A DNA stretch of 64,000 nucleotides from an uncultured cyanobacterium (GCA_963744145.1 CAVUSO010000001.1:7232001-7296000); one strand, 5' to 3'. Counted from the first letter of the stretch, positions 14,333 through 30,769 are shown. Notes: generated by a model from the sequence alone, not told the origin. Numbers and translations: made by a program.

Positions 14333-14356
14333 TCATTGTTGAAATTTGAGATTTTT

Positions 14357-15577: not shown

Positions 15578-15608
15578 GTTGTTTATTTTGAATTTACTCT
15601 TGATATTA

Positions 15609-16436
15609 CTAGATACAGAACCAAATACCAAACTTTTGGATTGTGAATTTTGAGCGTTTGACAGTGATACCAGGAACCCAGCAGGGATCACCAAATTGTT
15701 CTATATGCTGTCCTGCTTGGTGAGGTGATTTCCATTCTCGTCCCACCAAAGGTTCCATCTCACCAGTTGCTGAAAAGTTTGTTGATGAGGTATGGGCTAA
15801 TAGTCGTTCTGTCTGGATCACAAATCTATCTTCACTATTGATCAAGACTGCTTGTCCATCAAATAAATCTTTGTTTTTATATGGTGCATCATCAACCAAT
15901 TCGACCATACCCCACCCATAACTACGCTCACCACCCAGGTGTAATCTGCGGATTGCTTGTTTCCAAGCAAGTTGACAGTTATTCTTCTCAAACACATAAC
16001 CAACTAGATAGACTTGTTCACCTGTGTCCAACCTGCGGGGTGAGAGAAATTCTACTTCATGCAGTAACCCCTCAGCAGCAGTTTGCTGGGGATAAAGCAG
16101 AGCTGTACTAACATAGCTGCTCAGAAAACGGTGACGAAAATTGTTATTCCACGACCAATTGATCTGATAGTCTCCATCTTTGTTAATGGCTGGATAAAAG
16201 TAGGTGTATGCTAAGGAATCATGAACTTTTTCTCCAATTTTCTGATAATCTGCTGAATTGATTGCTGGTTTATGTTCTTTCTCACACTCATCGCGTGTCA
16301 ATCTCATGGTGAGTGCGCCCCAAAACATTCGTCCTGTGATATATGGGCGAGTCCGTTGCAAGTTGCCCACTTTGCCACAGCCAATATGGATAGGCGATCG
16401 CAGCTTAAATATAACTCGATAAACCTGCCAGATCAC
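15609..16436 (-). CDS. cmr3: Type III-C RAMP, Cas5-group (Cmr3-like)
   Basis: LRSPIHIG, G-rich loop LGGERSYGWG; last gene of the operon, overlapping the cmr5 stop by 1 nt. Confidence 0.75.
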   Translation of the reverse strand: MIWQVYRVIFKLRSPIHIGCGKVGNLQRTRPYITGRMFWGALTMRLTRDECEKEHKPAINSADYQKIGEKVHDSLAYTYFYPAINKDGDYQINWSWNNNFRHRFLSSYVSTALLYPQQTAAEGLLHEVEFLSPRRLDTGEQVYLVGYVFEKNNCQLAWKQAIRRLHLGGERSYGWGMVELVDDAPYKNKDLFDGQAVLINSEDRFVIQTERLLAHTSSTNFSATGEMEPLVGREWKSPHQAGQHIEQFGDPCWVPGITVKRSKFTIQKFGIWFCI

Positions 16437-16864
16437 TAGGCTTCCTCCTGATCTGGTTGATGATGATTTAATTCTTCGTTTTGCCGCGCTTTTGCTCCAT
16501 AACGAGCGTAGATTAACATTTGTTCGAGCGTTTCTTTTGTAAGTAACAGTCGTTCTAAATTAACTGTTACCTTCTCAGTAATGTAGGAAAGTACATCGTC
16601 AGCCTTATTAATGTCTGGTTTGCCCCAATTAAATCCCAAAGCATTGAGGAGTTCAAACATTTCTTGAGCGATCGCCCTACCATTTTCCTTCTCTTTTGCT
16701 AGCAAGTAAAGAAAACAGGCATAGACACCATTTTCTTGTAATACCCCTAATGTTTTAGTCACACTATTATCTATATCACTAGCCTTTTTGTCGTGAGTCT
16801 TCTTAATAATTTCTTGTGCGTATTTTGCGGCTAGTCGCTCAAGATTAGTAACTACACTACTCAC
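16436..16864 (-). CDS. cmr5: Type III small subunit (Cmr5/Cas11)
   Basis: Small helical protein with KTLGVLQENGVYACFLYL between cmr4 and cmr3; GTG start at 16864 with upstream AAGGAG. Confidence 0.8.
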   Translation of the reverse strand: MSSVVTNLERLAAKYAQEIIKKTHDKKASDIDNSVTKTLGVLQENGVYACFLYLLAKEKENGRAIAQEMFELLNALGFNWGKPDINKADDVLSYITEKVTVNLERLLLTKETLEQMLIYARYGAKARQNEELNHHQPDQEEA

Positions 16865-17828
16865 CGTCTTGCTCCTTACCAAAAGTTTCTTTCCAGGGTT
16901 TTCCGACGATCGCCATGCGCCCAAAACCGCGTGTACCCATACCGCCAACTCCTAGCCATTCAATCATGCGAAAGCCAGATTTCACTACATCTAGTGAATT
17001 ATTCCAGGAATCACCTCCTGGTAGTGGATTATTTTGTCCGGTTTTGTTCAGTGTTTTTTTAGGAAAATTCTGACGATAATCATCAAGTACAACTTCTGCG
17101 GTGAGAAATGCAGCACGGGGAATAGCTTCGTAGGTAAACAGAGCCCCTTCTGCTGCTGCACCAGTCTCCGGATCGATCGCTACCGATGTACGCACTTCTA
17201 GATTACTATTCACTACTTGGCTAAAAAGTGCATCTTGTACCAAAACAATTTTATTTCTAATCGCTTGCCAACGTTCTTGATTTTCCCAATTCTGGGGTGC
17301 TATCACGGTTACTGTGTTTTCAATCCGAAGCATTAACCATCCTAAGTTGAGCGGATCTTTACGATCCCAAGTCAACACAACTGAGTCATTACTCCAATTT
17401 AATGATGGATTTATGGTAAAACCTGCATCTTTTAGCCGTTCCATCGTACTGACCCATACAGGTCCTACCATTGAATTTACAGGAAAAAGTAGCAGATGGG
17501 CATCGAATATGTTAACTACACCCGAATAGGTAGTTGAATCATCTTTGTTAGCATTCTGGGACTTTTTGAGATAGCCAAAGGTATAACAGACTGGATTTTG
17601 ATCGGGGTCTTCAATTGTGTCATGGGCTTGTCCTGCTGCTCCTGGTGTTTCATATAATTGAGCTGCGTAGAATCGAGCTGCACCATGCAAGCTAGTTCCA
17701 GGAATTTTAGGAATTTTGGTTCCTGGTTCTCGCACAATACTATTATCTACCCGTCCCAAACGATAGCCTCCAGTGCCAATATGTACCGGGTCAAGCGTCA
17801 TAAACAGATAGCGTTGCCGCTTATACAT
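16857..17828 (-). CDS. cmr4: Type III RAMP Cmr4 (Cas7, target-RNA cleaving subunit)
   Basis: DPVHIGTGG, VDNSIVRE with the conserved Asp, IPGTSLHGA, GVGGMGTRGFG. Confidence 0.92.
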   Translation of the reverse strand: MYKRQRYLFMTLDPVHIGTGGYRLGRVDNSIVREPGTKIPKIPGTSLHGAARFYAAQLYETPGAAGQAHDTIEDPDQNPVCYTFGYLKKSQNANKDDSTTYSGVVNIFDAHLLLFPVNSMVGPVWVSTMERLKDAGFTINPSLNWSNDSVVLTWDRKDPLNLGWLMLRIENTVTVIAPQNWENQERWQAIRNKIVLVQDALFSQVVNSNLEVRTSVAIDPETGAAAEGALFTYEAIPRAAFLTAEVVLDDYRQNFPKKTLNKTGQNNPLPGGDSWNNSLDVVKSGFRMIEWLGVGGMGTRGFGRMAIVGKPWKETFGKEQDGE

Positions 17829-17832
17829 TATT

Positions 17833-20604
17833 TTACTGCTCCTTTAAAATTTCAATATGCAGTTCTGCCAAGTCAGCTAATTCACCTCTTACTCCAGCCT
17901 CAATCATCTTCTGACGTTGTTCTGAGGAAATTGATGACCATAAATGGCTCTTAGGCCAATTTGCATTCGCTAGGGTGTCGGTAACAAACTGTTGAAATAT
18001 TTGATCTTGTGTTGACTGATTTCCCTCGTCTTGCCCATACCAAGTTTCGCGGGTTGCTTCAATGGTATAGATGATCTGATGACATTGGGAGGTCTCCAGG
18101 TTTTTCAGAATATTCCAGATTTGGTCTAGACGATCTAAGTCTTCAAGGTAAAATGGGCGAGTGTGACCTGGACGGCGACCATTTTCGTCATAGTAAATAT
18201 CAAAGCGACGGGCGCTGCTATCGAGAAATTCAAAATCGAAGGTGGATGGTGTGAAATAAATGCGATCGCCCTCTTGCAAATCATCAGTATGAACTAACCA
18301 ACAAGGTGTTGTTTCACCAGGTCGCTGACTTTTGATTGCTCTTTTACGTCCACTCACCTTGCTATCATCACCATGAGTTTCTAGAAAAACGTAGGGATAC
18401 CAAACATCATCTGTTGTGCCATCTCCCATTTTGGCGGGAATATGCCAAGTAATAGTATGGTTATCTTGGATCAGATTTAGAGTAATGGTTTCTTCAAATT
18501 GTTGAGTACCATTTGCTAGCTCTTTCTTATTTTTTGGCAATTCTCCTCTAGATATTGACTGTACCTGCCAGTCTTTTTGATGATTAGGCGATTTGTAACT
18601 TAACATCTGCCGCCCAGCATCCAGAGCAGATCGAAGGGGAGTGCGACGATGGAAATACACTATACCTAAGTGTAGAGGGAGACGATTACGAACTTTTCCC
18701 ATCTCTCGTTCATATTTCGTTTGAATTGTTTTGATTACTTCAAGAGATTTGTCCGCTGGGACAAGAGCCATGAAAGTACGTGGTTCAGCCAGAATCTGAA
18801 TAATAGGGCTATACTCTGTTGAATCAAATTGCACGTTGCTGATGGTCAAACTACCGCGCAATTGATTAGGTTTTCCATATCCAGTAGGTTCTTCTATAAA
18901 TACCTGCTGATTAAGCAATTTTTGATCAACAAATGTGACCGCTAATTCACTATTTGAATATTGCTGATACTCTGCACCTAATTGTTTAGCAACATAGCAA
19001 AGATTATCTGTTGTGATTAATTTTTCGTTATAATATAAAATACTAAGCTTGGTTGTTCCGAATACCAAGTCATAATTTCCAAGATCAGCTAACGGCTTGT
19101 CAAAATTATAAAAGTCAATCGTAAAATTGAGGCGACCTTTTACCATTGGTAGTTGTGCATCTACAAATGACTCTTGCCAAAACCTTTGAGTAGTGCGCCA
19201 GACACGCTGTATCCGTGCAAAGGATGGTTCTTTACTAAAGGAATAATTTTTGTTTGTGTTATTGCTAGGATTGCATACAACAATAAGTGTTTTGATCATG
19301 TCACCATTGAGCCAGTCATTCAGATTAAATCTACCGACAACTAACGCGAGATGACCATTTTTATCAGCCACTTCGTCTATCCAGATAGTATTTCTGGAAA
19401 ATGTATTATCGTGATCTTTACTCTGCAAGTCTTTTAACCATGCTTGTGCCCGTTTACCTCGTCGTTTCAGACAAACATGACAAACATTCTGTAAGAACGC
19501 TTCAAGTTTTTGCTCTTTATTATCCTCTCCCCAGCCCTGTGGACGCATACCACAGACTGTGCATATATCAGTCACTTTTCCCTGCCACCAACGCTTTGAA
19601 TAATCTTCAAAAGGTGTAATTGGTGGCAAAGACAGTGCTAGAGCTTTGTGGATGACAATGCCTTTTTCATGAGCTGCTGTAATATGAATTTGAGGTTTTA
19701 ACTCTCCGCTTAACTCACTTCTCCACCCAGTATTTAAGATTAGGTTTTCAAGCAGGTTACGCAATTGGCTACCCTCAATATCATCGCCCTCCAACTCTGG
19801 CATTAAAAAAGCACTACCATTTTCATCTCGGTAGACTTCGTTGCCCAATGGATAGGTTTCTTCTAAAAGTGTATGGACAAGGTTTAACGATGCTTGTAAC
19901 GATGTTTGCCGACCCAGTAAATCACCAATTGTCAGTGAGCGTTCTAAAAAACTTATGCCATCAAAACTAATAGATAGAATTCGCCACTTCAAATCATGTT
20001 CAATAACTTTATTTTCTATAATATATCGAGCAGCGATTGCTTTCCAGAATGCGGCTGTAGCTGCTCCCCATTCCCAAAGTCTGACTTCATTCAGAGGTCG
20101 TCTTGTATCTCCTACAGCATGGTTGAATACTTGTTCTAATTCTTTGAGAAAACTATTACGCTGATTGATATTGTTGACTGCTTTCAGCAGTTCTGATGAT
20201 TTTTCGTTGAGTAAAGTCTCAAACCCAAATACAGACGCAATTAAACAAGTTGGCTTTCCTAGTCCTCGCTCTTGTGGCTGATCTACTTGTGGCTTATCTA
20301 TATGGGCAATATTATGGCAAATGCCTAACAGTTTAATACGCCAGTCTGAAGAATGTTTTGCTTTAGAAGGATCTTTACCTTCTTCTATTAACTGCTTAAG
20401 TGAAGAATTCTCAGTATATGTAAGCGATGTGAGAATGTCTTGTGGTTTAAAGCTATCCAAGACAGATGAAATATCAGCAGGATTAAATTGCGCCCCTAAT
20501 TTTTTCCACTGACCAATACACTTTTGCCAATCATGTAAAAACGCTGCTACTTCTGTTAAGAGCAGATCATCACTTTTATTAGCTAAATCTGTCAAGTCAT
20601 ACAT
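17833..20604 (-). CDS. cas10: Cas10 large subunit, type III-C (Csx11-like), with HD motif and degenerate Palm
   Basis: N-terminal LHDWQK, DTRRPLNEV, YRDENG, Zn finger CTVC...CHVC, SFARIQRVWRTT; AEPRTF where GGDD is expected. Confidence 0.88.
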   Translation of the reverse strand: MYDLTDLANKSDDLLLTEVAAFLHDWQKCIGQWKKLGAQFNPADISSVLDSFKPQDILTSLTYTENSSLKQLIEEGKDPSKAKHSSDWRIKLLGICHNIAHIDKPQVDQPQERGLGKPTCLIASVFGFETLLNEKSSELLKAVNNINQRNSFLKELEQVFNHAVGDTRRPLNEVRLWEWGAATAAFWKAIAARYIIENKVIEHDLKWRILSISFDGISFLERSLTIGDLLGRQTSLQASLNLVHTLLEETYPLGNEVYRDENGSAFLMPELEGDDIEGSQLRNLLENLILNTGWRSELSGELKPQIHITAAHEKGIVIHKALALSLPPITPFEDYSKRWWQGKVTDICTVCGMRPQGWGEDNKEQKLEAFLQNVCHVCLKRRGKRAQAWLKDLQSKDHDNTFSRNTIWIDEVADKNGHLALVVGRFNLNDWLNGDMIKTLIVVCNPSNNTNKNYSFSKEPSFARIQRVWRTTQRFWQESFVDAQLPMVKGRLNFTIDFYNFDKPLADLGNYDLVFGTTKLSILYYNEKLITTDNLCYVAKQLGAEYQQYSNSELAVTFVDQKLLNQQVFIEEPTGYGKPNQLRGSLTISNVQFDSTEYSPIIQILAEPRTFMALVPADKSLEVIKTIQTKYEREMGKVRNRLPLHLGIVYFHRRTPLRSALDAGRQMLSYKSPNHQKDWQVQSISRGELPKNKKELANGTQQFEETITLNLIQDNHTITWHIPAKMGDGTTDDVWYPYVFLETHGDDSKVSGRKRAIKSQRPGETTPCWLVHTDDLQEGDRIYFTPSTFDFEFLDSSARRFDIYYDENGRRPGHTRPFYLEDLDRLDQIWNILKNLETSQCHQIIYTIEATRETWYGQDEGNQSTQDQIFQQFVTDTLANANWPKSHLWSSISSEQRQKMIEAGVRGELADLAELHIEILKEQ

Positions 20605-21787
20605 GGTTTATTTTCGTTCCTTTCGGTTCTCTACACAATCCTTCTCCTATCTGCTTTGCCCGATCGCACAACTCATTCAAGCTAGCAAAAGATACTTTAG
20701 TTATAGATAATGTTGGTGGTGATGGTTCCGGTTCGGGTGCTGATTCTAATGTGACTGTTTGTTTTAATGCTTTACCTTCCCGTTCCCACCATTTTTTGGC
20801 TTTTTCATAACGCTGCTTTTCTTTCTTGCTAGATTTTTTATTTAGATATTCTGCTTCAGACTTAAGATTACCATCAGAATTTTGCAAGTCCGGATGTAGT
20901 TTTCCGGGTGCGATTAGATAGGATGGTAGCTCAGGTTCAGTAGATATTACTTTCGGTTCAGGTGGCTGTAAATCTGGTAGATCTGTTGCGATCGCTAATT
21001 CTCCTATACCATTAACTTCTGCAATCCCAAAACCACTACTTGTTTTTGCTCCAAAGCCATAAACCGTCAACATTTTCTCGACTCCCTCCGCAACCATCTG
21101 TAAGTCTCTAGCAACCTCAGTCAGTTTTACTAAACCAAAGGGAACGTATAACAAGACAAATTCTCCAATTGCATCTACGGGAACACACTCAATCAAAATT
21201 GGATTTTTACCAGTGCCCTTTTTGCGATCGTGCGGGTTGATCACCTCTAATCCAATCTGATCAAAGAACGTTGGATAAAAATAAAGACAACCTTGTTCAA
21301 TTTTTTTATCATCTATTTGAATATCTTTCTTAGTTCCAAAGAGATGCTCAATTCTAATTTGCCTTGCTACAAATTCTTTCTTATAGATGCAATCATTCCT
21401 TATACTTTCATTCAGGTTATCCGACCATTCAGATAACTGTTGTATCATTGCTATACGCAATACCCCTTTCCAGCTCGTTGAGGCAACCATTGGGTTTTGA
21501 AAAATCTTTTCCTTACGAACCGGATGATCAAGTAGGTGAAAGGAGCGATCGTCTTTGCTCAAATAAGGCTTAGACAACTTTAAGGAAAACCGCAGCATAA
21601 AACTAAACGATGGTAAATAGTTAAGATCGGAAAGTTTGGGGAGAAAACCAAACTGGTTCAAATTAATAGCAGAGTCAACTTTCTCATAACGAATTTGCCA
21701 TTCATTCAGATGCTTGGCTTTGTCTTTTGTAGCGATCGCTTGACGCAACCAAGAGTCGTGAGTTGCTGAATAATCGTATTGCATCAT
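20597..21787 (-). CDS. cmr6: Type III RAMP Cmr6
   Basis: LSKPYLSKDD, STSWKG, LYFYPTFF, EVINPHDR, GFGAKTSSGFG. Confidence 0.85.
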   Translation of the reverse strand: MMQYDYSATHDSWLRQAIATKDKAKHLNEWQIRYEKVDSAINLNQFGFLPKLSDLNYLPSFSFMLRFSLKLSKPYLSKDDRSFHLLDHPVRKEKIFQNPMVASTSWKGVLRIAMIQQLSEWSDNLNESIRNDCIYKKEFVARQIRIEHLFGTKKDIQIDDKKIEQGCLYFYPTFFDQIGLEVINPHDRKKGTGKNPILIECVPVDAIGEFVLLYVPFGLVKLTEVARDLQMVAEGVEKMLTVYGFGAKTSSGFGIAEVNGIGELAIATDLPDLQPPEPKVISTEPELPSYLIAPGKLHPDLQNSDGNLKSEAEYLNKKSSKKEKQRYEKAKKWWEREGKALKQTVTLESAPEPEPSPPTLSITKVSFASLNELCDRAKQIGEGLCREPKGTKINHV

Positions 21788-22509
21788 TCACTCCCTACAA
21801 ATTCAAATGCTGCAAGTAAAGGCTGAAAAATTTCACAAATATCAGCCTCGTCAGCATTCGCCATTATTTTTTCGGCAAATACTGGAGGAGAAGTGTGTAA
21901 TTTCGTGATTGCCGCATAGATCCGCACATAATCTTTTGCTTCGACTAAAGTAATACCATTTCTAGCCAGCAAATCCGGCATTTCATCAGTAATCTTGGCA
22001 GCCAAATTGTTAGGTGTAATCCGAATTTGTTCCGCCAATCTATTAACAGTATTCTCTCTTAACGCAAGCTCCAAAACATAATCATCAATGGTGGACTTAA
22101 TAAAGCTGTTATTCCATCGCCTAATTGCAATATGTAAAGCTAAACGAAAATTCAGGTCTGGGAGCGACAATGTATAAACATTAGATTGAGTTGAATGTGT
22201 GGTTAACTGTGGCATAGTAATTTGAATATCAATTCTATTTAACTCTCTTTGCAAAGCACCAGAAATACTTTGGCAAATCCTTGCTTCAGTCTCATCTGTA
22301 TGACTATCCAAATCACGTAAAATTACACAGTCAACTGGCTCTTTTTCTTCGAGTAGGGGTCTGATGCGATTCATCACTGTATTGTTCAATTTATCTTTGC
22401 CTTCAGCAGGTATATAAGTTGCGTAGTCCTTGTGATAACCAAGAAGCGTAAACATTTTCTTACATACCTTCTCTTCTGTAGAGCCTTCACCAAAGACCAA
22501 AATAGTCAT
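21784..22509 (-). CDS. TOPRIM-like putative nuclease embedded in the cmr operon
   Basis: ATG at 22509, 2 nt after the ATPase stop; LVFGEGSTE, ILRDLDS (DxD) and STIDDYVL match the TOPRIM acidic pattern; ATGA overlap with cmr6. Confidence 0.7.
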   Translation of the reverse strand: MTILVFGEGSTEEKVCKKMFTLLGYHKDYATYIPAEGKDKLNNTVMNRIRPLLEEKEPVDCVILRDLDSHTDETEARICQSISGALQRELNRIDIQITMPQLTTHSTQSNVYTLSLPDLNFRLALHIAIRRWNNSFIKSTIDDYVLELALRENTVNRLAEQIRITPNNLAAKITDEMPDLLARNGITLVEAKDYVRIYAAITKLHTSPPVFAEKIMANADEADICEIFQPLLAAFEFVGSE

Positions 22510-22511
22510 AG

Positions 22512-23798
22512 TTACTCTTCCTTTAGATGAAACTGCAATGGCGGCACAAAATCCTTCCAAGCCCGTGGGTCAAGACCAGAATCTAACCAGGTTACTAATG
22601 TGTCTTGATCAAACCAGGATGACTTTAATTGTCCATTGGATAAACTCAAGTGAAAGATTAGGGTGTCTTCTGAATGAAGATTTTTGTTTCGCAACATCTG
22701 GGTTATGTAGGCGACAAACTCAAGGTTATGGGTGGAAATAAAAACTTGGATCGGTTTGTCGCGAATAATTTTGACCACTTCCTCAATAAGTCTCCCTAGT
22801 GTTCTTGGATTTTGGAATGATTCTGGCTCTTCCCAGATCAACAAACCGGGTGCATCGGAAGTAACTCTTTCTGCCATCACTACTAACGGAGTTAATAATT
22901 TAAAAGCAGCCCTTGCACCATCACCAAAAGCATCAATAGACAAAGCAGGTCGATCTTTTGGAGCAATCCATCCTTGTAATTTTTGCTCATCTCCTCGCAG
23001 AGGTACAAACTGGACTATACAATCAGAACCGATTTCGTAAATCGCATCAAAATGCTGGGCAATACGCTGTGTCCACCCGGACACAGTGCTAATAGTGCGA
23101 CGATAAAACTCGCTCGGTACATAATCTTTCACCATTGATGTGTCGCAAAATAGAGTGTGTTGAGCTACAGGGGGTTTCCCCTCAATCATCCAGCTTGCAC
23201 TTCCCTTCGTGTAATAGGTTAAACCTGGATGCCAGCAAAACACTGTTCGATTTGGGTAAGCTAGATCAACAGATGCACTCATCAACTCCTTAACTAAATC
23301 AGCTCTTTTGATAAATTCATCCTTCTCCCTTTCGTCTAGTGCTTCTGGTATGAGAAGAGAATCTAAGGCAAATAGAGCAATACTGTCTGGTTCTGCGATC
23401 GAAAATCTGAGGTTATTCACATCATCTTGTAGTTCAAATTCTTGCAGAAGCTTAGGAGCAGATCGATCAGCTACTGAAACATTGAAACTACGACCGTCTA
23501 CTCTTCCTAAAGTAAATGATTCAACAGTGTCGCTATGTTTATTAGCAACTAGATTGAGCGGATTATAACCTAATATATCTGGCTCTGAAAGCAGTACATC
23601 ATAGGTTATGCTTTCTTTGTCTTTCTGGGAAATCAAACCTACTGCTGTCTGATTAATCGTACCTGCCAGATATAAAGCTTCCATTACCGCCGATTTTCCC
23701 GCATTGTTAGGACCAACAAACACATTGAATTTAGTCAAATTACGAATTTGACCGGACTCAATACCGCGAAATCCTTTAATAGTAATGCTGCTAATCAT
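22512..23798 (-). CDS. ABC-superfamily ATPase (AAA_15/AAA_21-like) embedded in the cmr operon
   Basis: IKGFRGI, Walker A GPNNAGKS, signature FGDG, Walker B LLIWEEPE, H-switch ISTHN; ATGA overlap with the cmr1 stop. Confidence 0.88.
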   Translation of the reverse strand: MISSITIKGFRGIESGQIRNLTKFNVFVGPNNAGKSAVMEALYLAGTINQTAVGLISQKDKESITYDVLLSEPDILGYNPLNLVANKHSDTVESFTLGRVDGRSFNVSVADRSAPKLLQEFELQDDVNNLRFSIAEPDSIALFALDSLLIPEALDEREKDEFIKRADLVKELMSASVDLAYPNRTVFCWHPGLTYYTKGSASWMIEGKPPVAQHTLFCDTSMVKDYVPSEFYRRTISTVSGWTQRIAQHFDAIYEIGSDCIVQFVPLRGDEQKLQGWIAPKDRPALSIDAFGDGARAAFKLLTPLVVMAERVTSDAPGLLIWEEPESFQNPRTLGRLIEEVVKIIRDKPIQVFISTHNLEFVAYITQMLRNKNLHSEDTLIFHLSLSNGQLKSSWFDQDTLVTWLDSGLDPRAWKDFVPPLQFHLKEE

Positions 23799-25006
23799 AC
23801 TTGCTCTCTTGCCAAGGTAGTTTGTAAAAAAGTCTGAATCTCTGGAATTTTATGAATTGGCCAGGGTGTTTCAGTTGGTAAGAAAATGAGTTTGGCAGTA
23901 CGATAGTCAGTTGCTCTCAATCCAAGAGCTGTCAGCCAATGCTGCGGTTGAGCCAACTGATCTTTAAATACACTAAAAACTTCATCCTTAAACCTTCGCC
24001 CATCATGATCTTGAGGTAAATACATCCAACCCCGAAATTCCCATTGATTAGAATTATCCAGACAATATGCCCAACTAAAGGCAACTTTGCTCCGCACACG
24101 CTCATCCCCGCGTCCAATTGTACCAAATAACCAGTGAGGTAATGCTGGTGATGACCATTGGTGATGAAAGCGAAGGTGATTTTTAAGTGCAGGTGTAATG
24201 GGAACCATACCTTGCTTGGCTAACTGGTCAAGTTCTGTCCAACTATCTCGTCTTGTGCGTAGTTCTTTGATGCCAGGAATATTGTGCCACCAGTTTGAAG
24301 TTGTCGGTGTGAAGCGTAGCTTAAAGAAGGTAAAAGTCCGTAAATCTGGCTGCTCGCTCACGGATTGCTCCCCATATTTTTGCCAAGAGAACGATGATAA
24401 AGCATTTTTAACATGATCATTTTCAAGATCCACATTGATGATCCGAAAAATTCCGTAACCAAGCTGAGGACGCGCCCCCAAACTACCCCATGTTTCTATA
24501 AACCGCAGCAAAGCATGAACTATTGCTAAGATTTTCGGATCTCCTTGAATTGTAATTTTAAGTGTACCTAGCCAGCCCGGATTGATATACCATCCGCGGG
24601 TGCGATCTGGGGGAGTGACTTTTAATGGAACACTGGGTTGCCATACAGGTTGATTTTGCGGCTCATCTACACATACACTTAACCGAAACTGCCGTTTCCA
24701 GCCCGTGGCACCAAAAATCTGGGAAACATCACATAATCCAGACTCACTTAAATACTGACGACGTTCAACTTCATTTTTTTGGCGATATTTCTCAGCACTA
24801 AAAGTCGGCTTTAATCCACTGCGATCGCTAGATGTTGGATCTTTTACCTGTCCTCCTAATCCCCGCACTAACACTTCCATCCACCAACGTAAGCTACCCA
24901 GGATACCAGTTTCATGGATGCGATCTACCTTACCAGTCTCAACACCGCCAGTCCATAAGGGAGTCAATGTGTTGATTTTTACTTCCATTTTTCCCAAGTA
25001 ATACAT
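23795..25006 (-). CDS. cmr1: Type III RAMP Cmr1
   Basis: TLTPLWTGG, GILGSLRWW, IFGATG, GSLGARPQLGYG. Confidence 0.9.
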   Translation of the reverse strand: MYYLGKMEVKINTLTPLWTGGVETGKVDRIHETGILGSLRWWMEVLVRGLGGQVKDPTSSDRSGLKPTFSAEKYRQKNEVERRQYLSESGLCDVSQIFGATGWKRQFRLSVCVDEPQNQPVWQPSVPLKVTPPDRTRGWYINPGWLGTLKITIQGDPKILAIVHALLRFIETWGSLGARPQLGYGIFRIINVDLENDHVKNALSSFSWQKYGEQSVSEQPDLRTFTFFKLRFTPTTSNWWHNIPGIKELRTRRDSWTELDQLAKQGMVPITPALKNHLRFHHQWSSPALPHWLFGTIGRGDERVRSKVAFSWAYCLDNSNQWEFRGWMYLPQDHDGRRFKDEVFSVFKDQLAQPQHWLTALGLRATDYRTAKLIFLPTETPWPIHKIPEIQTFLQTTLAREQV

Positions 25007-25167
25007 TTACCCAAATATACCCTTTCGTTCTTTGACAATGCAATCCGCATTCAAACCGACAATACCTGCTTTACAGTCGGCGCTAACTTTGGGAAGATAT
25101 GCAGTCAGTCTTTTCGTTTAAGTTGCGGCGTGCTGATCATAAAATGGTACAACTGCCACCCGATTTA

Positions 25168-25217
25168 TACCAATTTTTGATGAGGGTGCATAGAATTAAT
25201 CCCCCCAACCCCCTTAA
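25168..25217. mobile_element. Truncated copy of the 10.9-kb MITE (one end only)
   Basis: TTA|TACCAATTTTTGATGAGGGTGCATAGAATTAATCCCCCCAACCCCCTTAA matches 10899-10955. Confidence 0.75.
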
Positions 25218-25419
25218 CATTACTAGCAGCAGTTCCATCTTTAGTCGGCTCTACTGCGATCGCGACCTGATGCAGCAGCAATTTTAGCCTTATACTAGAT
25301 GGTGAGGACTTGCTGAATTGAGCTAGTGAGAGATTCTTAGACCATTTGATCACTCGTTAGAACAGCATATTTAGATGATCTGTCAAATTTTGTCAGTCAA
25401 ACTTGGGGTAAGCAAAAAT

Positions 25420-26826
25420 ATGCCTCGTTATATTAAATATCTTGAAGCTGAAGGAGTTCTTGGGCGCTTTGATATTTATCAAGAGTTTCAAGAAGGTGTA
25501 AACGTACTTTTTGGGAAAAATGGGACAGGAAAAACGACCCTACTTCATATATTAGCTAATTTACTTAATGGTGATTACAAGCGATTTGCTTTTCTTGAGT
25601 TTAGCAAAATAAAAGTTCAACTTGATGATGAAACAAATATTGTTATTTCCAAGAATACAAAGGAAAAAGATATTTACATTAATGTCACTAGCGATGGTGA
25701 TTATCTTACAGAAAATCTTTCGACTAAAGAGATTTTAGAGCAGGAGCCATCAAGAGAAGAAATATTTTCTTCTTCTGCTAAAATAAGCTCTTTTTGGCAG
25801 CAAATTTTCAGCCGAAAAAGAAATGAAGAAGACATAACCCCTATTCTACCAGTAGCTTACTTTCCTGCTTTTAGAACAATGATCGAGGCGTGGGCATCAT
25901 CAGTACAATATACAGAAAATCCTGAAGATACACAGGTTTTAAGTACAAATTTTGCACGTAAATTGTTTGGTTATTTTGTGCCGAATCTTAATTATCCTTC
26001 TCTGATTGAAATAGAACACAAATTAACTATAGAGATTAAAGAAGCGTTATTTAAAATAGCAGTTGCTGACCGAGAAAATTTTAGCAATTTAGTTCCAAGC
26101 ATCTTTCAAGTTTTGTCTAAAAATTTTCATTCATTAGAAAATACTGTTTCATTAGAAGAAGAATATGAAGAATATGAGAATATGCTTGAGGAAATAAACT
26201 CCTTAGTTAGAAAACTTGAAGACTATCCTCTCAAAGAAACTCCTACAATTACGCAAATTCGTACTTCTGTTGCAGATTTTCAAGTCGATGATCAATATAA
26301 AAGAATTGCCCATAAGGTACTGAAAATCTACCGGGAAGCTCTTGAAAAAGTGATTACAGTTCAAGAAGATTCTTTCAGAGGAATTGAGAAATATCTAAAT
26401 TCTGTAAACTCCTTTTTAGAAGGGAAAAAGATTGAGAGTTTGCCAGAAAATACATTAGAACGTAAATTACCAGTAGGAATAAAATTTGACGAAGGAACTC
26501 CAAAAACGATTTCTGGGATTAGTCATGCTTTATCTTCTGGGGAACGCGAAATTGTCACTTTGATTTATGCGGCAACTTATATGAGTAAACAGCAGATAGT
26601 TCTAATCGATGAACCAGAGATTTCTCTCCATGTGGTTTGGCAAAGACATCTGCTCCAAAAGATGTCAGAACAGCTTGGAGATAGACAAATTATAGTTTGC
26701 ACTCACTCTCCTGTAATTGGAGCGGATTATGAAGAGAGAGTAATTATTTTTGAGCCAAAGATTACCTGCTCATCTAAAACTACGATAGAGCATCAGTTGG
26801 TTGATGAAGATAATGAGGTATTCTAA
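25420..26826 (+). CDS. ariA: ABC ATPase, PARIS AriA-like (alternative start 25375)
   Basis: GKNGTGKT, LSSGE, LIDEPEISLH, CTHS; TAATG overlap with a DUF4435-like gene. Confidence 0.75.
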   Translation: MPRYIKYLEAEGVLGRFDIYQEFQEGVNVLFGKNGTGKTTLLHILANLLNGDYKRFAFLEFSKIKVQLDDETNIVISKNTKEKDIYINVTSDGDYLTENLSTKEILEQEPSREEIFSSSAKISSFWQQIFSRKRNEEDITPILPVAYFPAFRTMIEAWASSVQYTENPEDTQVLSTNFARKLFGYFVPNLNYPSLIEIEHKLTIEIKEALFKIAVADRENFSNLVPSIFQVLSKNFHSLENTVSLEEEYEEYENMLEEINSLVRKLEDYPLKETPTITQIRTSVADFQVDDQYKRIAHKVLKIYREALEKVITVQEDSFRGIEKYLNSVNSFLEGKKIESLPENTLERKLPVGIKFDEGTPKTISGISHALSSGEREIVTLIYAATYMSKQQIVLIDEPEISLHVVWQRHLLQKMSEQLGDRQIIVCTHSPVIGADYEERVIIFEPKITCSSKTTIEHQLVDEDNEVF

Positions 26827-27372
26827 TGGCTTACGATCCAGCATCTTACCGTCTATATTTAATGAATAGTATTAATAGCGGCAAAAATAAGCATATTCTT
26901 GTTGAAGGTAAAGATGATAAATATTTAATTGAAAAATTATGTCAGGATTTTTTACTTAAAACTAATCAACATACCACTAATAAAATCCTTGTAGATTCTG
27001 CTGAAAATCTTATTAAGGGAGATGAATCAATTCCATTTACCAACAATAGAGATAAAGTTGAATTTATAGCTAAGAGTGTTAATGGGAAACAATATGCTGA
27101 TGGTTTTATCGGTTTTGTTGATCGGGAGTTACATAAATTTGAATGGGACTATGATTGTATTTCAGAGCAGCAATTCTCATTTTGAAAAAAATCAGAGAAA
27201 ATTCTCTTATTTAAATAGAGAACTTGTGTCGAAGCATGATTTTTTGACAGATAATTATCATCCGACGCTGAAGATAGACAAGTTTTCAGAAATTTGTCCA
27301 TGAAAAATCGATTTCAACTGATACATCCAGATGAAATTCTCACCCATTTTTTAGGTTTTTTTTGATAAAAAA

Positions 27373-27400
27373 GTACGGGCGTATTGCAATACGCCCCTAC
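27373..27400 (-). repeat. 28-bp GTAG-type REP-like palindrome, copy 1
   Basis: Reverse complement is GTAGGGGCGTATTGCAATACGCCCGTAC. Confidence 0.8.
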
Positions 27401-27428
27401 CCTTCCTCTTTCAATATATTGATATTTT

Positions 27429-28780
27429 TCAACTAGAATTTAGTTTTTTTAATGGGACATTCTCGGTGAGAATAAATGAGAATAAATCTGACCAATTTTT
27501 GAACCATAAATATTTTAATAAGGTCCGAATATCCTTAAAGAAAGTAGTAGGGGCGTATGGCAATACGCCCGTACTAATAGGTCACGAACTTTTTGATAGA
27601 TGTAATTAACTAAATCCAAAACAGTATGAAATAAAAAAGCTAGTAAATTCAAAGACAATAATAACTCGCACAAATGATTTTCACCATGACCAAAGTTATG
27701 CTCTAAATTATAACCGTGATTTTTAAGAACGTTATTACTTTCATTCTCAACTTTCCATCTGCTGCGCCCAGCTTTGACAATTTCTTCAATATTATTTTCA
27801 GTGATTTTATGATTAGTGATCCAATTATTTTGGTAGATAATTTTCTGTGTTTCCTCATTAATAACAGTCACTTCGTACCAATTAACTTCGAGACTTGATT
27901 CTTCATCTTTTAAGGGAACTCTATTAGCATAGCGATAACGATACAGGAGATTTTTTCGCCCATCCCATTGGGGCTTTTTAATGGTAGTAACTTCTCCACT
28001 TTTTTCTAAAAACTCTAGCCATTCATATAAAGTTTTATGCGAAGTTTCTCGACCAACAAAAATAAAATTATATCCTTGTTTTAGAGCTAATTCACAAATA
28101 GGTTGGTGGGCATATAAGTCATCCCCTAAAAGGGTTACAGGATAACCATATTTATTTTGATGATTCTTATTCAACCATCTTTTAACCGCCGCATTTTCAC
28201 AATCTTGTTTTTGATGACCATCCAGGTTTTTAATAAATTCTGGCGCTAAACTAATCACTTGGTTTTGATTAGGAGAAACTACAATAGGTGTAACACAGCT
28301 ATGAAAATAAGTGGTAGTTCCATTGCGATGATTACGACGGTTACAATGAGGACAATTTATTTTCTGTGATGAAAAATATTCGGTGCCATCTAAAGCCATT
28401 AAAATTTCTTCATCTAAGTAGAGAAACTTTTTCAAAACTCCGTTTTTATTTAACCATTCATAGACTTCTTGAAAAGCCATAAATATAGTAGCTGCTGGCA
28501 CCGGATCTAACAAATTTCTGATTTGATTATCACAGGGAATTTTCTTAATTGAAAATAAACTTTCTGCGTTATCTTTTCCTTTATTGCTTTTCATTAACCG
28601 CTGATGGTCTAAAAAAGATGCTGACTGAGTAAAAAAGATTGAAAATGCAGCCATCACTGCATCTTCTACCTGGTATTTCGTATTATTTCCAGGTTTCCTT
28701 TCATCAGGTAAGTCATGTAATTGTTGACGTAAAAATTCGATTAATTCAGGGATTTCTAGGGTCGCTGCTTTTTGAGCCAT
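27429..28780 (-). pseudogene. DDE transposase frameshifted near its C-terminus by a REP-like palindrome
   Basis: ALDGTEYFSS, KQDCE, LLGDDLY, RWKVENE, NLEHNFGHG; the probable native tail TFFKDIRTLLKYLWFKNWSDLFSF...NSS* lies in another frame (27429-27545). Confidence 0.82.
27547..27574 (+). repeat. 28-bp GTAG-type REP-like palindrome, copy 2
   Basis: GTAGGGGCGTATGGCAATACGCCCGTAC, one mismatch to copy 1, opposite orientation. Confidence 0.8.
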
Positions 28781-29806
28781 GTTTGAGTAATTTAACGTGC
28801 TGTCAGATTTTTAACTCACCGATTATACCTCATCTGATCACAATTATAAATTTTTATTTTCCTTGAATTCCCTATTCTAAAAACCGAACTATCAAACTGG
28901 ATTTCCCTCGTTCGTTGTCAGGCCATCCTCGATTCTATTGAGTATTTATACTTAGATATTGACCCAATTGTTTTTTAGCCATTGCCTCTGCCTGAAAAAC
29001 TGGTTATTTTGTACTATATTTTCAATTCCCAAATCGGGATTAATACTCTATTTTTTTTAAAATGAGAATTGCTGATTTCAGAGCTTCAGGATATACTTAA
29101 CTCTCATGATGTAATCCAGCGCCTTATTTTATCAAGAGGTCACTCTATAGAAAACTATATTTTTGATTTTGCTATATTTTGTGAAGTCTTAGAGTATCTT
29201 TCAACAACAGTATATACAAGTCAATCTATAGCTTTGTTTAAAAAAACTTTTGAATCCACCCTTCGCCTTGCTTGTGCAATTGGGTTAGCAGCAACAAAGG
29301 CAAAAGTTCTATCCAAAGTTAATTCAACCATCGACTATAAGCTCCTAGATATCATTTCCTCCACAGACGTAGGTTTTAAATTTGATGACTGGGTACAAAA
29401 ATTAGTTTCTAGGGGGATATCCAATGTTCAAGCACAAGACTTAAAATTGCATTACGTTATTTATAAAGAACAGGTTACTAAGGCTTCAATTTCTCTAATC
29501 AGATGGATATGTCATGGTCATATTGGTTATGACTTTTTGAAAGCTTTGTATGAGAGATGTATAATTGAACTATGTCCCAATACACAAGACAAAGCTAAAG
29601 AATTAAGCGGAATAACCTGGCTTAAAAAGGAACAACTGTTTTATTCCTTCATTAATTCTTGGGTCAAAAAGTCCTTGGAAGAGCAGTGCGACTATCCTAA
29701 AGCTATCTTTGAATTGTTAGGGATAATATGATAGATATTCATCTTTTCTTCTTGCCAATCCATTTGGTAATTTGTAAAGTCAAACTGACGTTAACTTGAA
29801 AAAATC

Positions 29807-30769
29807 GTGGAAATAACTGTGGACTTAACTATCTTTTTCCAGCAATTTCTCAATGGTTTATCCATTGGTAGTGTTTATGCAATTTTTGCTTTAGGATATA
29901 CGCTCATTTTCTCCATCTTGGGGATTATTAATTTTGCTCACGGGGCGATTTTTACGCTCGGTGCTTATTTTACTTATGCTTTCATGGGAGAGTCATTTGG
30001 TTTTAATGGATTATTAGCAAATGCTGCTTTACCAATTAAGCTTCCCTTTGGATTTGCTTTGATTTTGGGAAGTTTATTAGCTGGATTGGTAGGAGTTATG
30101 GTGGAACGGATTGCTTTTAAACCTCTGCGCGATCGCCAAGCTGATTCCTTATTGACGATTGTATCTAGTTTAGGTGTTGCCTTGATAATTGTCAATTTCA
30201 TCCAGTATTTTGTCGGTGCAGAAAATTATACCTTTCCCGCAAATACTTATGGGAATTTACCAACAGCGATTAATTTTGGCACTAGCGAAAACCCAATTCC
30301 CATTCGGACTGTGCAAATAGTAATCTTTATTGTATCAGTATTTATTTTAGGAATACTAACTTATTTGATCAATGGGACTAAATTTGGCAAAGCGATGAAA
30401 GCAGTAGCTGAAGATCCAATTACTGCTAGTTTATTAGGAATCAATCCGGATTTTTTTATTGTCATGACATTTTTTATTAGCAGTTTTGTCGCTGGGTTAG
30501 CAGGTACTTTAGTGAGTACCAGTGTGAGTATTTCCGGACCATATTTTGGGATTGCGTTTGGTTTGAAAGGTTTAGCTGTAATTGTTTTGGGAGGTTTGGG
30601 AAGTATCCCTGGTGCTGTCTTAGGTGGTTTGGTAATTGGGATTATTGAAGCATTTGTCCCTGGAGATTTGTCTGCTTATAAGGATGCAGTTGCTTTTGGG
30701 ATATTATTTTTTATGCTATTAGTTCGACCTCAAGGTTTGTTAGGTCGTCGATTGATCCAAAAAGTTTAA
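29807..30769 (+). CDS. Branched-chain amino acid ABC permease (LivH-like)
   Basis: NGLSIGSVYAIFALGYTLIF, INFAHG, VLGGLGSIPGA, LLVRPQGLLG. Confidence 0.93.
   Translation: MEITVDLTIFFQQFLNGLSIGSVYAIFALGYTLIFSILGIINFAHGAIFTLGAYFTYAFMGESFGFNGLLANAALPIKLPFGFALILGSLLAGLVGVMVERIAFKPLRDRQADSLLTIVSSLGVALIIVNFIQYFVGAENYTFPANTYGNLPTAINFGTSENPIPIRTVQIVIFIVSVFILGILTYLINGTKFGKAMKAVAEDPITASLLGINPDFFIVMTFFISSFVAGLAGTLVSTSVSISGPYFGIAFGLKGLAVIVLGGLGSIPGAVLGGLVIGIIEAFVPGDLSAYKDAVAFGILFFMLLVRPQGLLGRRLIQKV

What the first reader, a model, noticed from the sequence alone, without database searches (positions are those of the whole stretch)
21784..23798. Intact ABC-ATPase plus TOPRIM-like nuclease pair built into a cyclase-dead type III-C CRISPR operon
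Seen: two non-cas genes sit between cmr1 and cmr6 with tight coupling at every junction (cmr1/ATPase ATGA overlap, 2-nt gap, TOPRIM/cmr6 ATGA overlap). The ATPase keeps Walker A, a GDG signature, an EEPE Walker B and the TH switch; the partner keeps EG...DxD...IDDY acidic motifs. Known: ABC-ATPase/TOPRIM modules are the core of PARIS and OLD/Gabija-type defences, and III-C Cas10 lacks the GGDD needed for cOA signalling. Inference: the pair may be a messenger-independent abortive effector triggered by the Cmr complex, or a guard that senses phage anti-CRISPR proteins; it could also be a passenger defence cassette using the cmr promoter.
Basis: partly seen in the sequence, partly recalled or inferred. 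Interest (0 to 1): 0.85.

Follow-up and report, generated by a model that had tools for sequence, protein, structure and literature searches.

The report
ATPase–nuclease pair built into CRISPR III-C
A cyanobacterial type III-C CRISPR operon, whose Cas10 cannot make signalling nucleotides, carries a conserved two-gene ATPase plus TOPRIM-nuclease module at one fixed position, which may be this subtype's missing effector arm.

Summary
On the minus strand, cmr1 (25006-23795), an ABC ATPase (23798-22512), a 241-aa protein (22509-21784) and cmr6 (21787-20597) are joined by ATGA overlap, 2-nt gap and ATGA overlap. Cas10c/Csx11, cmr4, cmr5 and cmr3 follow.

The ATPase has conserved Walker A, signature-like, Walker B and H motifs and an SMC/Rad50/PtuA-like fold. 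The small protein folds with pLDDT 95.6. It resembles PH0156 (DUF3226) and the OLD-nuclease TOPRIM plus helical core, with invariant E8, D66xD68, D142-D143 and K172.

This is not a one-off insert. Of 24 genomic loci encoding relatives of the small protein, 14 lie in III-C operons across four phyla, 13 of them between cmr1 and cmr6. Eight are stand-alone two-gene cassettes in Acidobacteriota and Myxococcota. Two plasmid III-C loci with 64%-identical Cas10c lack the pair, and their Cmr1 is only 35% identical. Cmr1 follows the ATPase phylogeny; Cas10c, Cmr4 and Cmr3 do not. No Cas10c has GGDD, and 4 of 11 pair-bearing loci also lack the HD dyad.

Best reading: a split OLD/PARIS-like module recruited as a messenger-independent effector or partner of the Cmr head. 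Binding, trigger and substrate are untested. I found no description of it in the literature searched.

The parts
23795..25006 (-). cmr1 (403 aa), pair-associated Cmr1 variant
   Evidence: TIGR01894 4e-16, PADLOC Cmr1 1e-23. It carries an insert with invariant W239 W240 and a PALKNxLR motif shared by 51 aligned relatives. The insert is absent from the pair-less plasmid Cmr1.
22512..23798 (-). ABC (SMC/Rad50-type, AAA_15/AAA_21) ATPase, 428 aa
   Evidence: Pfam AAA_15 6e-16 and AAA_21 6e-15; PADLOC AbiLi 1e-23 and AriA 2e-18. Motifs are conserved. Model pLDDT is 89.4. Best folds are SMC head, Rad50, PtuA and retron Eco7/Eco8 ATPases.
21784..22509 (-). TOPRIM plus helical-domain protein, 241 aa (putative nuclease)
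   Evidence: Model pLDDT is 95.6. Foldseek gives PH0156 2p62 at E 1.7e-4 (TM 0.51) and OLD C-terminal regions 6njx/6njw/6nk8 at E 5e-4 to 4e-3. E8, G9, D66, D68, D142, D143 and K172 are invariant. HMM hits are weak only: DUF3226 0.006, OLD TOPRIM 0.009, HEC-01B 3e-5.
20597..21787 (-). cmr6 (396 aa)
   Evidence: PADLOC Cmr6 2.5e-71. Its start overlaps the stop of the TOPRIM gene.
17833..20604 (-). cas10c / csx11 (923 aa): no GGDD, HD dyad present (H24 D25)
   Evidence: TIGR02682 4e-136; PADLOC Cas10c 1e-198. Motif check.
16857..17828 (-). cmr4 (323 aa)
   Evidence: TIGR02580 7e-31 (108 bits, cut-off 87); PADLOC Cmr4 6e-42.
16436..16948 (-). cmr5 (ORF as listed; the true start is probably near 16860, just after the cmr4 stop)
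   Evidence: PADLOC Cmr5 2e-47 over residues 34-159 of the 170-aa ORF.
15609..16436 (-). cmr3 (275 aa)
   Evidence: PADLOC Cmr3 3e-88.
25375..26826 (+). Neighbouring, separate PARIS-like AriA-type ATPase (483 aa), divergent from cmr1
   Evidence: PADLOC AriA 3.6e-25; Pfam AAA_21 and AAA_15. It is only remotely related to the embedded ATPase.
26826..29731 (+). AriB-like TOPRIM gene of the neighbouring pair, split by a ~1.9-kb IS element (TIRs 27168-27192 and 29050-29074; transposase ORF 28780-27515 on the minus strand)
   Evidence: The N-terminal piece hits DUF3226 at 3e-4 and PDC-M38B at 1e-4. The C-terminal piece (29069-29731) hits AriB at 1.1e-8. The inverted repeat I2 is 25 nt and 96% complementary.

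Best explanation
The two genes are a split OLD-family module: an ABC ATPase and a separate TOPRIM-plus-helical-domain nuclease, the same architecture as PARIS AriA/AriB. This module has been recruited into a lineage of type III-C Cmr operons as a fixed accessory.

Proposed mechanism:
1. The Cmr-crRNA complex recognises a foreign transcript.
2. Its Cas10c cannot make cyclic oligoadenylate, so the signal is passed by direct contact, most likely at the Cmr1/Cmr6 'head' that caps the crRNA 3' end.
3. The ATPase holds the nuclease in check and releases or activates it under ATP control.
4. The nuclease cuts RNA (tRNA, as AriB and P2 OLD do) or DNA, which stops the infection or the cell.

Shown: gene identities, folds, catalytic-type motifs, translational coupling, conservation of position across phyla, co-inheritance with cmr1, and absence of cyclase motifs.

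Inferred: physical contact with Cmr1/Cmr6, the trigger, the substrate and the outcome.
For: - Identity and intact motifs of both proteins. The invariant set E8, E12 (at least 90%), D66, D68, T140 (at least 90%), D142 and K172 follows the same order as the catalytic set E400, E404, D455, D457, T506, E508 and K562 of B. pseudomallei OLD (passages of PMC6755086).
- 23 of 24 related loci have the ATPase directly upstream of the small gene. 14 of 24 are in cmr operons of Cyanobacteriota, Chloroflexota, Bacteroidota and Thermodesulfobacteriota. 13 of those have the pair after cmr1 and/or before cmr6. 10 show the full order cmr1-ATPase-TOPRIM-cmr6-cas10c-cmr4-cmr5-cmr3.
- 4-nt overlaps at the TOPRIM/cmr6 junction in 9 of 12 loci that have both genes (coordinates).
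- GC3 of the pair (0.34, 0.31) equals that of the cmr genes (0.31-0.38). The neighbouring PARIS-like pair has 0.19-0.29.
- The deep ATPase split {L006, L007, L010, L014} versus the rest (100/100) is also a clade for Cmr1 (97/91). It is not rejected for the TOPRIM protein (p 0.26) or Cmr6 (p 0.14). It is rejected for Cas10c (p 5e-78), Cmr4 (p 4e-149) and Cmr3 (p 5e-5).
- In the one pair-less lineage seen (two plasmids), Cas10c is 64% identical to the window but Cmr1 only 35%, the lowest of all loci. That Cmr1 also lacks the WW/PALKN insert.
- No Cas10c of 15 has GGDD or GGDE. 4 of 11 pair-bearing Cas10c with an N-terminus have H-M or H-N instead of HD, which leaves the TOPRIM protein as the only candidate nuclease besides Cmr4.
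- The literature states that III-C has no known effectors (PMC11229360, passage).
Against: - 8 of 24 loci carry the pair alone among housekeeping genes (hisS, larC-type Ni-insertion protein) with no cas gene within 6 kb. The module can therefore work, or at least persist, without Cmr.
- III-C loci with very similar Cas10c lack it, so Cmr can persist without it.
- Shared history of cmr1 and the ATPase could come from physical linkage alone. The clade tested was also named after the trees had been seen.
- The special divergence of pair-less Cmr1 rests on one independent lineage. The AU test does not reject its placement with the cyanobacterial Cmr1 (p 0.43).
- In two of the 14 cmr-associated loci (L002, L004) the ATPase is split into two ORFs, and L024's TOPRIM protein has an internal deletion.
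- No interaction, activity or phenotype was tested.
Confidence: 0.45

Rival explanations
1. Passenger defence cassette. The pair is an autonomous PARIS/AbiL-like abortive-infection system that merely rides in the cmr operon for expression and co-transfer within defence islands. It senses phage cues of its own.
For: - Stand-alone relatives without cas genes occur in 8 of 24 loci.
- On the ATPase tree the window's clade is sister to the stand-alone ones.
- Pair-less III-C loci exist with 64%-identical Cas10c.
- The window's island also holds an independent PARIS-like pair.
Against: - The insertion point is the same in 13 loci of four phyla, with overlapping start and stop codons.
- Two deep ATPase lineages both sit at that point.
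- Extra copies (L014, L005) also sit around cmr1.
- Composition is like that of the cmr genes.
- Cmr1 tracks the ATPase lineage.
Confidence: 0.15
2. Guard of the Cmr complex. The ATPase monitors Cmr1/Cmr6 (or the whole complex) and unleashes the TOPRIM nuclease when a phage anti-CRISPR protein or protease disables it, by analogy with PARIS sensing the anti-restriction protein Ocr.
For: - It has PARIS-like architecture, and AriA senses a viral immune suppressor (passages of PMC11464382).
- It is tightly linked to a particular Cmr1 variant.
Against: - No anti-III-C protein is known from any call.
- A guard need not sit inside the operon at a fixed site.
- It does not explain how loci lacking both cyclase and HD (4 of 11) would act on targets.
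Confidence: 0.15
3. Biogenesis or recycling factor. The ATPase/TOPRIM pair matures crRNA 3' ends, loads or remodels the complex, or strips cleaved target. TOPRIM would act as an RNase M5-like processing enzyme rather than as a toxin.
For: - The locus has no cas6 and no CRISPR array in 64 kb. Only 1 of the 24 genome loci holding the small gene (L008) has an array within the DNA fetched.
- Cmr1/Cmr6 cap the crRNA 3' end (recalled, not from a call).
- RNase M5 shares the OLD-type active site (PMC6755086).
Against: - Closely related III-C loci do without the pair.
- Stand-alone relatives occur with no CRISPR context.
- All nearest profile matches are defence effector modules.
Confidence: 0.12

Closest known systems
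PARIS (AriA ABC ATPase + AriB DUF4435 TOPRIM nuclease; proposed class 4 OLD)
   Same: It has two separate genes in the order ATPase then TOPRIM. The ATPase is of AAA_15/AAA_21 type (PADLOC AriA 2e-18). The TOPRIM E and DxD are present. Fused forms exist in the wider family: one 607-aa hit matches at residues 374-602.
   Different: The small protein matches no AriB or DUF4435 model. The ATPase lacks a coiled-coil arm in the model. The pair sits inside a CRISPR effector operon rather than in a phage satellite hotspot. A true PARIS-like pair lies next door and is only remotely similar.
Class 2 OLD nucleases (B. pseudomallei and X. campestris OLD C-terminal region) and Gabija GajA
   Same: The best solved-structure relatives after PH0156 are these TOPRIM plus helical-domain regions. 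The order of acidic, Thr and Lys residues is the same as in the two-metal site.
   Different: In OLD and GajA the ATPase and TOPRIM are one polypeptide. TM-scores are only 0.40-0.49 and identity is 12-15%. There is no UvrD-like helicase partner here.
Retron Ec78 co-opting Septu PtuAB, and retron Eco8 (type I-B) with an OLD-type effector
   Same: The concept is the same: a nucleic-acid-based sensor module recruits a stand-alone ABC ATPase-nuclease pair that also exists on its own (abstract of PMC12819146). The ATPase model matches PtuA and retron Eco7/Eco8 ATPases.
   Different: The sensor here would be a crRNA-guided Cmr complex, not a reverse transcriptase with msDNA. The nuclease is TOPRIM, not HNH (Septu).
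Canonical type III-C loci without the pair (Anabaena cylindrica pANACY.02, Sphaerospermopsis NIES-73 plasmid1)
   Same: They share the order cmr1-cmr6-csx11-cmr4-cmr5-cmr3. Cas10c is 64%, Cmr4 68% and Cmr3 53% identical to the window, and there is no GGDD.
   Different: cmr1 and cmr6 are 10 nt apart with nothing between them. Their Cmr1 is only 35% identical and lacks the WW/PALKN insert.
MADS mad3/mad4 and Menshen NsnB/NsnC (ABC ATPase with DUF4276-type TOPRIM effectors); crenarchaeal Cas_RecF ATPase + cas_RFas next to type III cassettes
   Same: These are ABC ATPases paired with a small effector or partner inside multi-gene defence systems (passages of PMC12065111). The window's ATPase hits mad3 at 5e-10 and NsnB at 5e-16. 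Shah et al. list an SMC-type ATPase with a small unknown partner beside archaeal type III modules (PMC6546367).
   Different: No Pfam DUF4276 match was found. Homology to Cas_RecF/cas_RFas was not tested. Those pairs flank cassettes, whereas this one is inserted between two effector-subunit genes.

Membership tests
Type III-C CRISPR-Cas effector module | Cas10 of the Csx11/Cas10c family | tested here: met
   TIGR02682 at 4e-136 (455.6 bits, cut-off 248.95); PADLOC Cas10c at 1.2e-198.
Type III-C CRISPR-Cas effector module | Inactivated cyclase (no GGDD in palm 2) | tested here: met
   No GG[DE][DE] in the window's Cas10c or in any of the 15 sequences examined. The aligned position reads AEPRTFMALVPAD.
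Type III-C CRISPR-Cas effector module | Gene set and order cmr1, cmr6, cas10, cmr4, cmr5, cmr3 | tested here: met
   All six genes are found in that order, with the two extra genes between cmr1 and cmr6. The order matches the pair-less plasmid loci.
Type III-C CRISPR-Cas effector module | Adjacent CRISPR array and cas6 | tested here: not met
   There is no array in the 64-kb window and no cas6 hit. This is usual for III-C according to the legend of Extended Data Fig. 2 in PMC12669027, so it does not exclude membership.
OLD-family / PARIS-like ABC ATPase + TOPRIM nuclease modules | ABC ATPase with Walker A, signature, Walker B and H-loop | tested here: met
   AAA_15 and AAA_21 are above their cut-offs. 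Motif conservation is 42-48 of 48. The fold is SMC/Rad50/PtuA-like at E 1e-10.
OLD-family / PARIS-like ABC ATPase + TOPRIM nuclease modules | TOPRIM fold with catalytic Glu and DxD | tested here: met
   E8 and D66xD68 are invariant in 47 sequences. Foldseek gives OLD C-terminal regions with probability 0.98-1.00 and TM 0.37-0.49. Pfam OLD-like_TOPRIM scores only E 0.009, below its cut-off.
OLD-family / PARIS-like ABC ATPase + TOPRIM nuclease modules | Second metal site and lysine from the helical domain (E404, T506, E508 and K562 in BpOLD) | tested here: inconclusive
   E12, T140, D142/D143 and K172 are invariant or nearly so and occur in the same order. No residue-level superposition was made.
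OLD-family / PARIS-like ABC ATPase + TOPRIM nuclease modules | Match to the AriB (DUF4435) or DUF4276 family model | tested here: not met
   No DUF4435, DUF4276 or AriB hit for the window's protein or for any of 47 family members at E 0.01.
OLD-family / PARIS-like ABC ATPase + TOPRIM nuclease modules | ATP-regulated nuclease activity and phage defence | not testable with these tools
   This needs biochemistry and phage assays.
DUF3226 (PF11536, PH0156-like) | Score above the Pfam gathering cut-off | tested here: not met
   The score is 16.8 bits against a cut-off of 27. 8 of 47 members match at E 0.01 or better, best 1.1e-4. The fold does resemble PH0156 (2p62, TM 0.51).
cOA-dependent type III ancillary effectors (CARF/SAVED) | CARF or SAVED sensor domain | tested here: not met
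   No CARF or SAVED hit in either protein, and no cyclase to feed one.

The most novel reading that the evidence does not exclude
A distinct III-C variant exists in which the head of the Cmr complex (a special Cmr1, with Cmr6) is physically wired to an ABC-ATPase-gated TOPRIM nuclease. RNA-guided target recognition would then be converted into nuclease release without any nucleotide second messenger. This would be a protein-contact signalling route for type III CRISPR and the first effector for subtype III-C. In loci that have lost both the cyclase and the HD dyad, it would be the only killing activity.
Probability: 0.35. Interest if true: 0.85.

Novelty: new variant of a known kind. Interest (0 to 1): 0.72.

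Why it matters
How subtype III-C gives immunity is an open question. Its Cas10 cannot signal, only about half of the systems keep the HD nuclease, and no ancillary effector is known (PMC11229360).

A conserved ATPase-nuclease pair placed between the genes of the two head subunits offers a concrete, testable answer. It would also extend the theme already seen in retrons, PARIS, Gabija, MADS and Menshen, that ABC-ATPase-gated nucleases are portable effector cartridges that different sensors plug into.

The family is small: 199 representatives at E 0.001 or better among 1.84 billion. It is not covered by any Pfam model at threshold, so current annotation pipelines call these genes 'AAA family ATPase' and 'hypothetical protein'.

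Tried and rejected
1. Complex prediction. I planned to fold the ATPase, the TOPRIM protein and Cmr1 residues 190-403 together. No fold was made, so the question of contact stays open.

2. Sequence search of solved structures. It found nothing for either protein.

3. Recent duplication of the neighbouring ATPase pair. Rejected. BLASTP shows only the Walker A stretch (E 0.14). Profile comparison gives 46 aligned columns for the ATPases and probability 3.7% for the TOPRIM parts.

4. Internal promoter or terminator as a sign of an independent cassette. The scans found 22 promoter-like sites against 24.6 expected and 5 terminator-like sites against 8.2 expected, which is uninformative.

5. Contig-length 'fingerprints' to count co-occurrence in metagenomes. 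33 of the 120 listed Cmr1 relatives share a longest-contig length with a listed ATPase or small-protein relative: 12 of 20 at the top ranks and 0 of 20 at ranks 101-120. I do not rely on this. The lists are word-filtered, cluster representatives need not share contigs, and clade-A ATPases are too distant to be listed.

6. Topological proof that pair-less Cmr1 was replaced. The AU test does not reject a cyanobacterial clade that includes it (p 0.43). Only its long branch (2.5) and low identity stand out.

7. A conserved third partner. PADLOC scans of 69 flanking ORFs from 10 pair-bearing loci showed only variable neighbours: I-D cas genes in L008, a mad3-like fragment and a Cas12f/TnpB-like fragment in L003, and others.

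8. Hidden cas genes near stand-alone pairs. I scanned 74 of the 109 ORFs. The 35 left out were the 17 pair genes themselves, the 4 ORFs of L005, and 14 short or distant ORFs. No Cas hit appeared at E 1e-5. Pfam shows housekeeping genes.

9. PADLOC's 'ATPase-Toprim_I-B' models. These refer to retron type I-B, not to CRISPR I-B (listing), so they are no precedent for a CRISPR link.

10. Literature. Searches, and passages read, gave no description of this pair in III-C loci. The only III-C-specific accessory listed by Shah et al. is a 143-aa RRM protein (C3a152).


Full report
**What is there**

The window is cyanobacterial. It holds 68 copies of the HIP1 octamer in 64 kb (the link between HIP1 and cyanobacteria is recalled, not from a call).

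An eight-gene operon lies on the minus strand:
- cmr1, 25006-23795
- an ABC ATPase, 23798-22512 (428 aa)
- a 241-aa protein, 22509-21784
- cmr6, 21787-20597
- cas10c/csx11, 20604-17833
- cmr4, 17828-16857
- cmr5, within 16948-16436
- cmr3, 16436-15609

There is an ATGA overlap at cmr1/ATPase, TAA-ct-ATG at ATPase/small protein, and an ATGA overlap at small protein/cmr6.

The Cas10 is a Csx11: TIGR02682 at 4e-136 and PADLOC Cas10c at 1e-198. It has no GGDD or GGDE, but keeps an N-terminal H24-D25 dyad.

There is no CRISPR array in the window. This is usual for III-C according to the legend of Extended Data Fig. 2 in PMC12669027 (passage).

**The two proteins**

The ATPase matches AAA_15 and AAA_21 above their cut-offs. 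In PADLOC it matches AbiLi (1e-23), AriA (2e-18), PDC-M38A, HEC-01A/02A, NsnB, Old and GajA.

In 48 aligned relatives:
- Walker A (G29, N31, G34, K35): invariant.
- Signature-like stretch (D289, G292, G294, R296): invariant.
- Walker B (W322, E323, P325, E326): invariant; E324 in 43 of 48.
- H357: 42 of 48.

Its model (pLDDT 89.4) resembles SMC and Rad50 heads, Septu PtuA, and the retron Eco7 and Eco8 ATPases (E about 1e-10 to 1e-8).

The small protein gets only sub-threshold HMM hits: DUF3226 at 0.006, OLD-like TOPRIM at 0.009 and HEC-01B at 3e-5. Of 47 family members, 8 touch DUF3226 and none touch DUF4276 or DUF4435.

Its model is very confident (pLDDT 95.6, pTM 0.91). The best solved-structure matches are:
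- PH0156 (2p62): E 1.7e-4, TM 0.51.
- C-terminal TOPRIM plus helical regions of class 2 OLD nucleases (6njx, 6njw, 6nk8): E 5e-4 to 4e-3, probability 0.98-1.00, TM 0.37-0.49.

E8, G9, D66, D68, H126, D142, D143 and K172 are invariant. T11, E12 and T140 are at least 90% conserved. This series has the same order as the catalytic residues of B. pseudomallei OLD, namely E400, E404, D455, D457, T506, E508 and K562 (PMC6755086, passages). I did not superpose residues, so the correspondence is inferred.

**How widespread, and in what context**

The small protein has 107 relatives at E 0.001 or better among 511 word-sharing candidates. The ATPase has 100 among 6881. A profile of the small protein finds only 199 representatives (126 at 1e-10, 67 at 1e-30) in 1.84 billion. 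One is a 607-aa protein matched over residues 374-602, which is the length of a fusion.

A scan of one genome per species gave 24 loci. I annotated them with phmmer using the window's own proteins.
- In 23 of 24 the ATPase lies directly upstream of the small gene. The 24th (L017) begins at a contig edge.
- 14 of 24 lie in cmr operons: three Cyanobacteriota, nine Chloroflexota, one Bacteroidota, one Thermodesulfobacteriota... the fourteenth is an unclassified MAG counted among these.
- 10 of the 14 show the full order cmr1-ATPase-TOPRIM-cmr6-cas10c-cmr4-cmr5-cmr3.
- Three are cut by contig ends but agree with that order.
- L005 has one pair before cmr1 and a second ATPase after it.
- L014 has two tandem pairs between cmr1 and cmr6.
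- Start and stop codons overlap by 4 nt at the TOPRIM/cmr6 junction in 9 of 12 loci with both genes.
- 8 of 24 loci (Acidobacteriota, Myxococcota) hold the pair alone. It sits between housekeeping genes such as hisS and a Ni-insertion protein, or next to other ATPase defence genes. No cas gene lies within 6 kb.
- Two loci are uninformative.

Flanks of the pair-bearing operons vary, and no third conserved partner appears.

**III-C without the pair**

Among 72,556 plasmids, tblastn with Cas10c found three records, while the small protein found none.

The Anabaena cylindrica and Sphaerospermopsis plasmids carry cmr1-cmr6-csx11-cmr4-cmr5-cmr3, with 10 nt between cmr1 and cmr6.

Identity of their proteins to the window:

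| Protein | Identity |
|---|---|
| Cas10c | 64% |
| Cmr4 | 68% |
| Cmr5 | 63-67% |
| Cmr6 | 55% |
| Cmr3 | 53-54% |
| Cmr1 | 35% |

The Cmr1 value is lower than for any pair-bearing locus from any phylum (41-66%).

These Cmr1 proteins lack a roughly 23-residue insert. That insert carries a WW and a PALKNxLR motif which are invariant or nearly so in 51 relatives of the window's Cmr1.

In trees, the pair-less loci are sister to the window for Cas10c (100/100). They are nested among cyanobacteria for Cmr4, Cmr3 and Cmr6. For Cmr1 they sit on a branch of length 2.5. An AU test does not reject placing them with cyanobacterial Cmr1 (p 0.43). The signal is therefore divergence, not topology, and it rests on one independent lineage.

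**Co-inheritance**

The ATPases fall into two deep clades (100/100). Both occur in III-C operons, and the window's clade is sister to the stand-alone ones.

How the set {L006, L007, L010, L014} behaves for each protein:

| Protein | Result |
|---|---|
| ATPase | clade, 100/100 |
| Cmr1 | clade, 97/91 |
| TOPRIM protein | not rejected, p 0.26 |
| Cmr6 | not rejected, p 0.14 |
| Cas10c | rejected, p 5e-78 |
| Cmr4 | rejected, p 4e-149 |
| Cmr3 | rejected, p 5e-5 |

The 5' half of the operon (cmr1, the pair, and perhaps cmr6) therefore has a history distinct from the 3' half. Two caveats apply. I named the set after seeing the trees, and neighbouring genes share history through linkage alone.

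**Reading**

The pair is a split OLD-family ATPase/TOPRIM module that also exists as an autonomous cassette. One or more lineages have become a fixed part of a III-C variant, together with a particular Cmr1.

III-C cannot signal through cOA and has no known effectors (PMC11229360, passage). In addition, 4 of 11 pair-bearing Cas10c have lost the HD dyad. The most economical function is therefore an effector arm switched by contact with the Cmr head. This parallels retron Ec78, which has co-opted the Septu ATPase-nuclease pair (PMC12819146, abstract).

AriB and P2 OLD cut tRNAs according to the titles and abstracts listed. That makes tRNA a reasonable first substrate to test.

Rival readings remain open because nothing on binding or activity could be tested: an independent passenger, a guard against anti-CRISPRs, or a crRNA or complex biogenesis factor. 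The complex-prediction tool never ran.

**Novelty**

Nine literature searches and the passages read gave no description of this arrangement.

For Shah et al. (PMC6546367) I saw main-text passages and term hits in supplementary tables S1 and S2. They list only a 143-aa RRM protein as III-C specific. They also describe a crenarchaeal SMC-type ATPase with a small partner beside type III cassettes, whose relation to this pair I did not test.

I did not see the supplementary data of PMC11229360 or PMC12669027, and bioRxiv supplements were closed. These could hold unnamed entries for such genes.

I rate the finding a new variant of a known kind.

Noticed in passing
window 25375-29731: A second, PARIS-like pair lies divergent from cmr1. 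It has an AriA-type ATPase (25375-26826, PADLOC AriA 3.6e-25) and an AriB-like gene. That gene is split by a ~1.9-kb IS element with 25-nt terminal inverted repeats (27168-27192 and 29050-29074) and a 421-aa transposase ORF (28780-27515, minus strand). The C-terminal piece (29069-29731) hits AriB at 1.1e-8. Its GC3 (0.19-0.29) is lower than that of the cmr operon.
   Followed up: partly
window 14336-30769: The whole defence block (15609-29731) sits between a periplasmic binding-protein gene (Peripla_BP_6, 14336-15577) and a branched-chain amino-acid permease gene (BPD_transp_2, 29807-30769). It looks as if it was inserted into a transporter gene cluster.
   Followed up: no
L014 5572-11703; L005 262-4661: Chloroflexus sp. 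MS-G has two tandem ATPase-TOPRIM pairs between cmr1 and cmr6; the first pair is very divergent. A Desulfobacteraceae contig has one pair before cmr1 and an ATPase of the other clade after it.
   Followed up: partly
L008 432-7454 and 18005-20703: In one Chloroflexota MAG the III-C operon with the pair is nested in a type I-D locus: Cas10d and Cas3d upstream, Cas4 and Cas1 downstream, and a CRISPR array of at least five repeats at 20378-20703. This is the only array seen near any of the loci.
   Followed up: no
L002 5434-6673; L004 8982-10023; L024 9950-10555: Possible decay in some loci. The ATPase is split into two overlapping ORFs in L002 and L004 (frameshift or assembly error). The TOPRIM protein of L024 has an internal deletion. 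L001, L003 and L024 have 0.9-2.1-kb unassigned gaps inside the operon.
   Followed up: no
window 3607-5905: Adjacent minus-strand ORFs carry a NACHT domain (4694-5905) and a NACHT C-terminal helical domain (3607-4650). This may be one STAND NTPase gene split in two.
   Followed up: no
window 39092-40841: A C-5 cytosine DNA methylase (39092-40459) lies next to a 126-aa ORF (40461-40841) that matches only the C-terminal part (profile positions 140-240 of 242) of the TdeIII restriction endonuclease. The restriction gene is probably truncated.
   Followed up: no
window 8817-9177 and 47969-48406: G-rich 9/18/27-nt tandem repeats lie inside ORF 8799-9671 (minus strand), next to a Ser/Thr kinase gene (9745-10710). 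A 69-nt tandem repeat (5.6 copies, 80% matches) lies inside ORF 47533-48531 (minus strand). It is too self-similar to be a CRISPR array.
   Followed up: no
Cas10c of L002, L006, L007, L012: In 4 of 11 pair-bearing Cas10c proteins with an N-terminus, the HD dyad reads H-M or H-N. These effector complexes would lack both the cyclase and the HD nuclease.
   Followed up: partly
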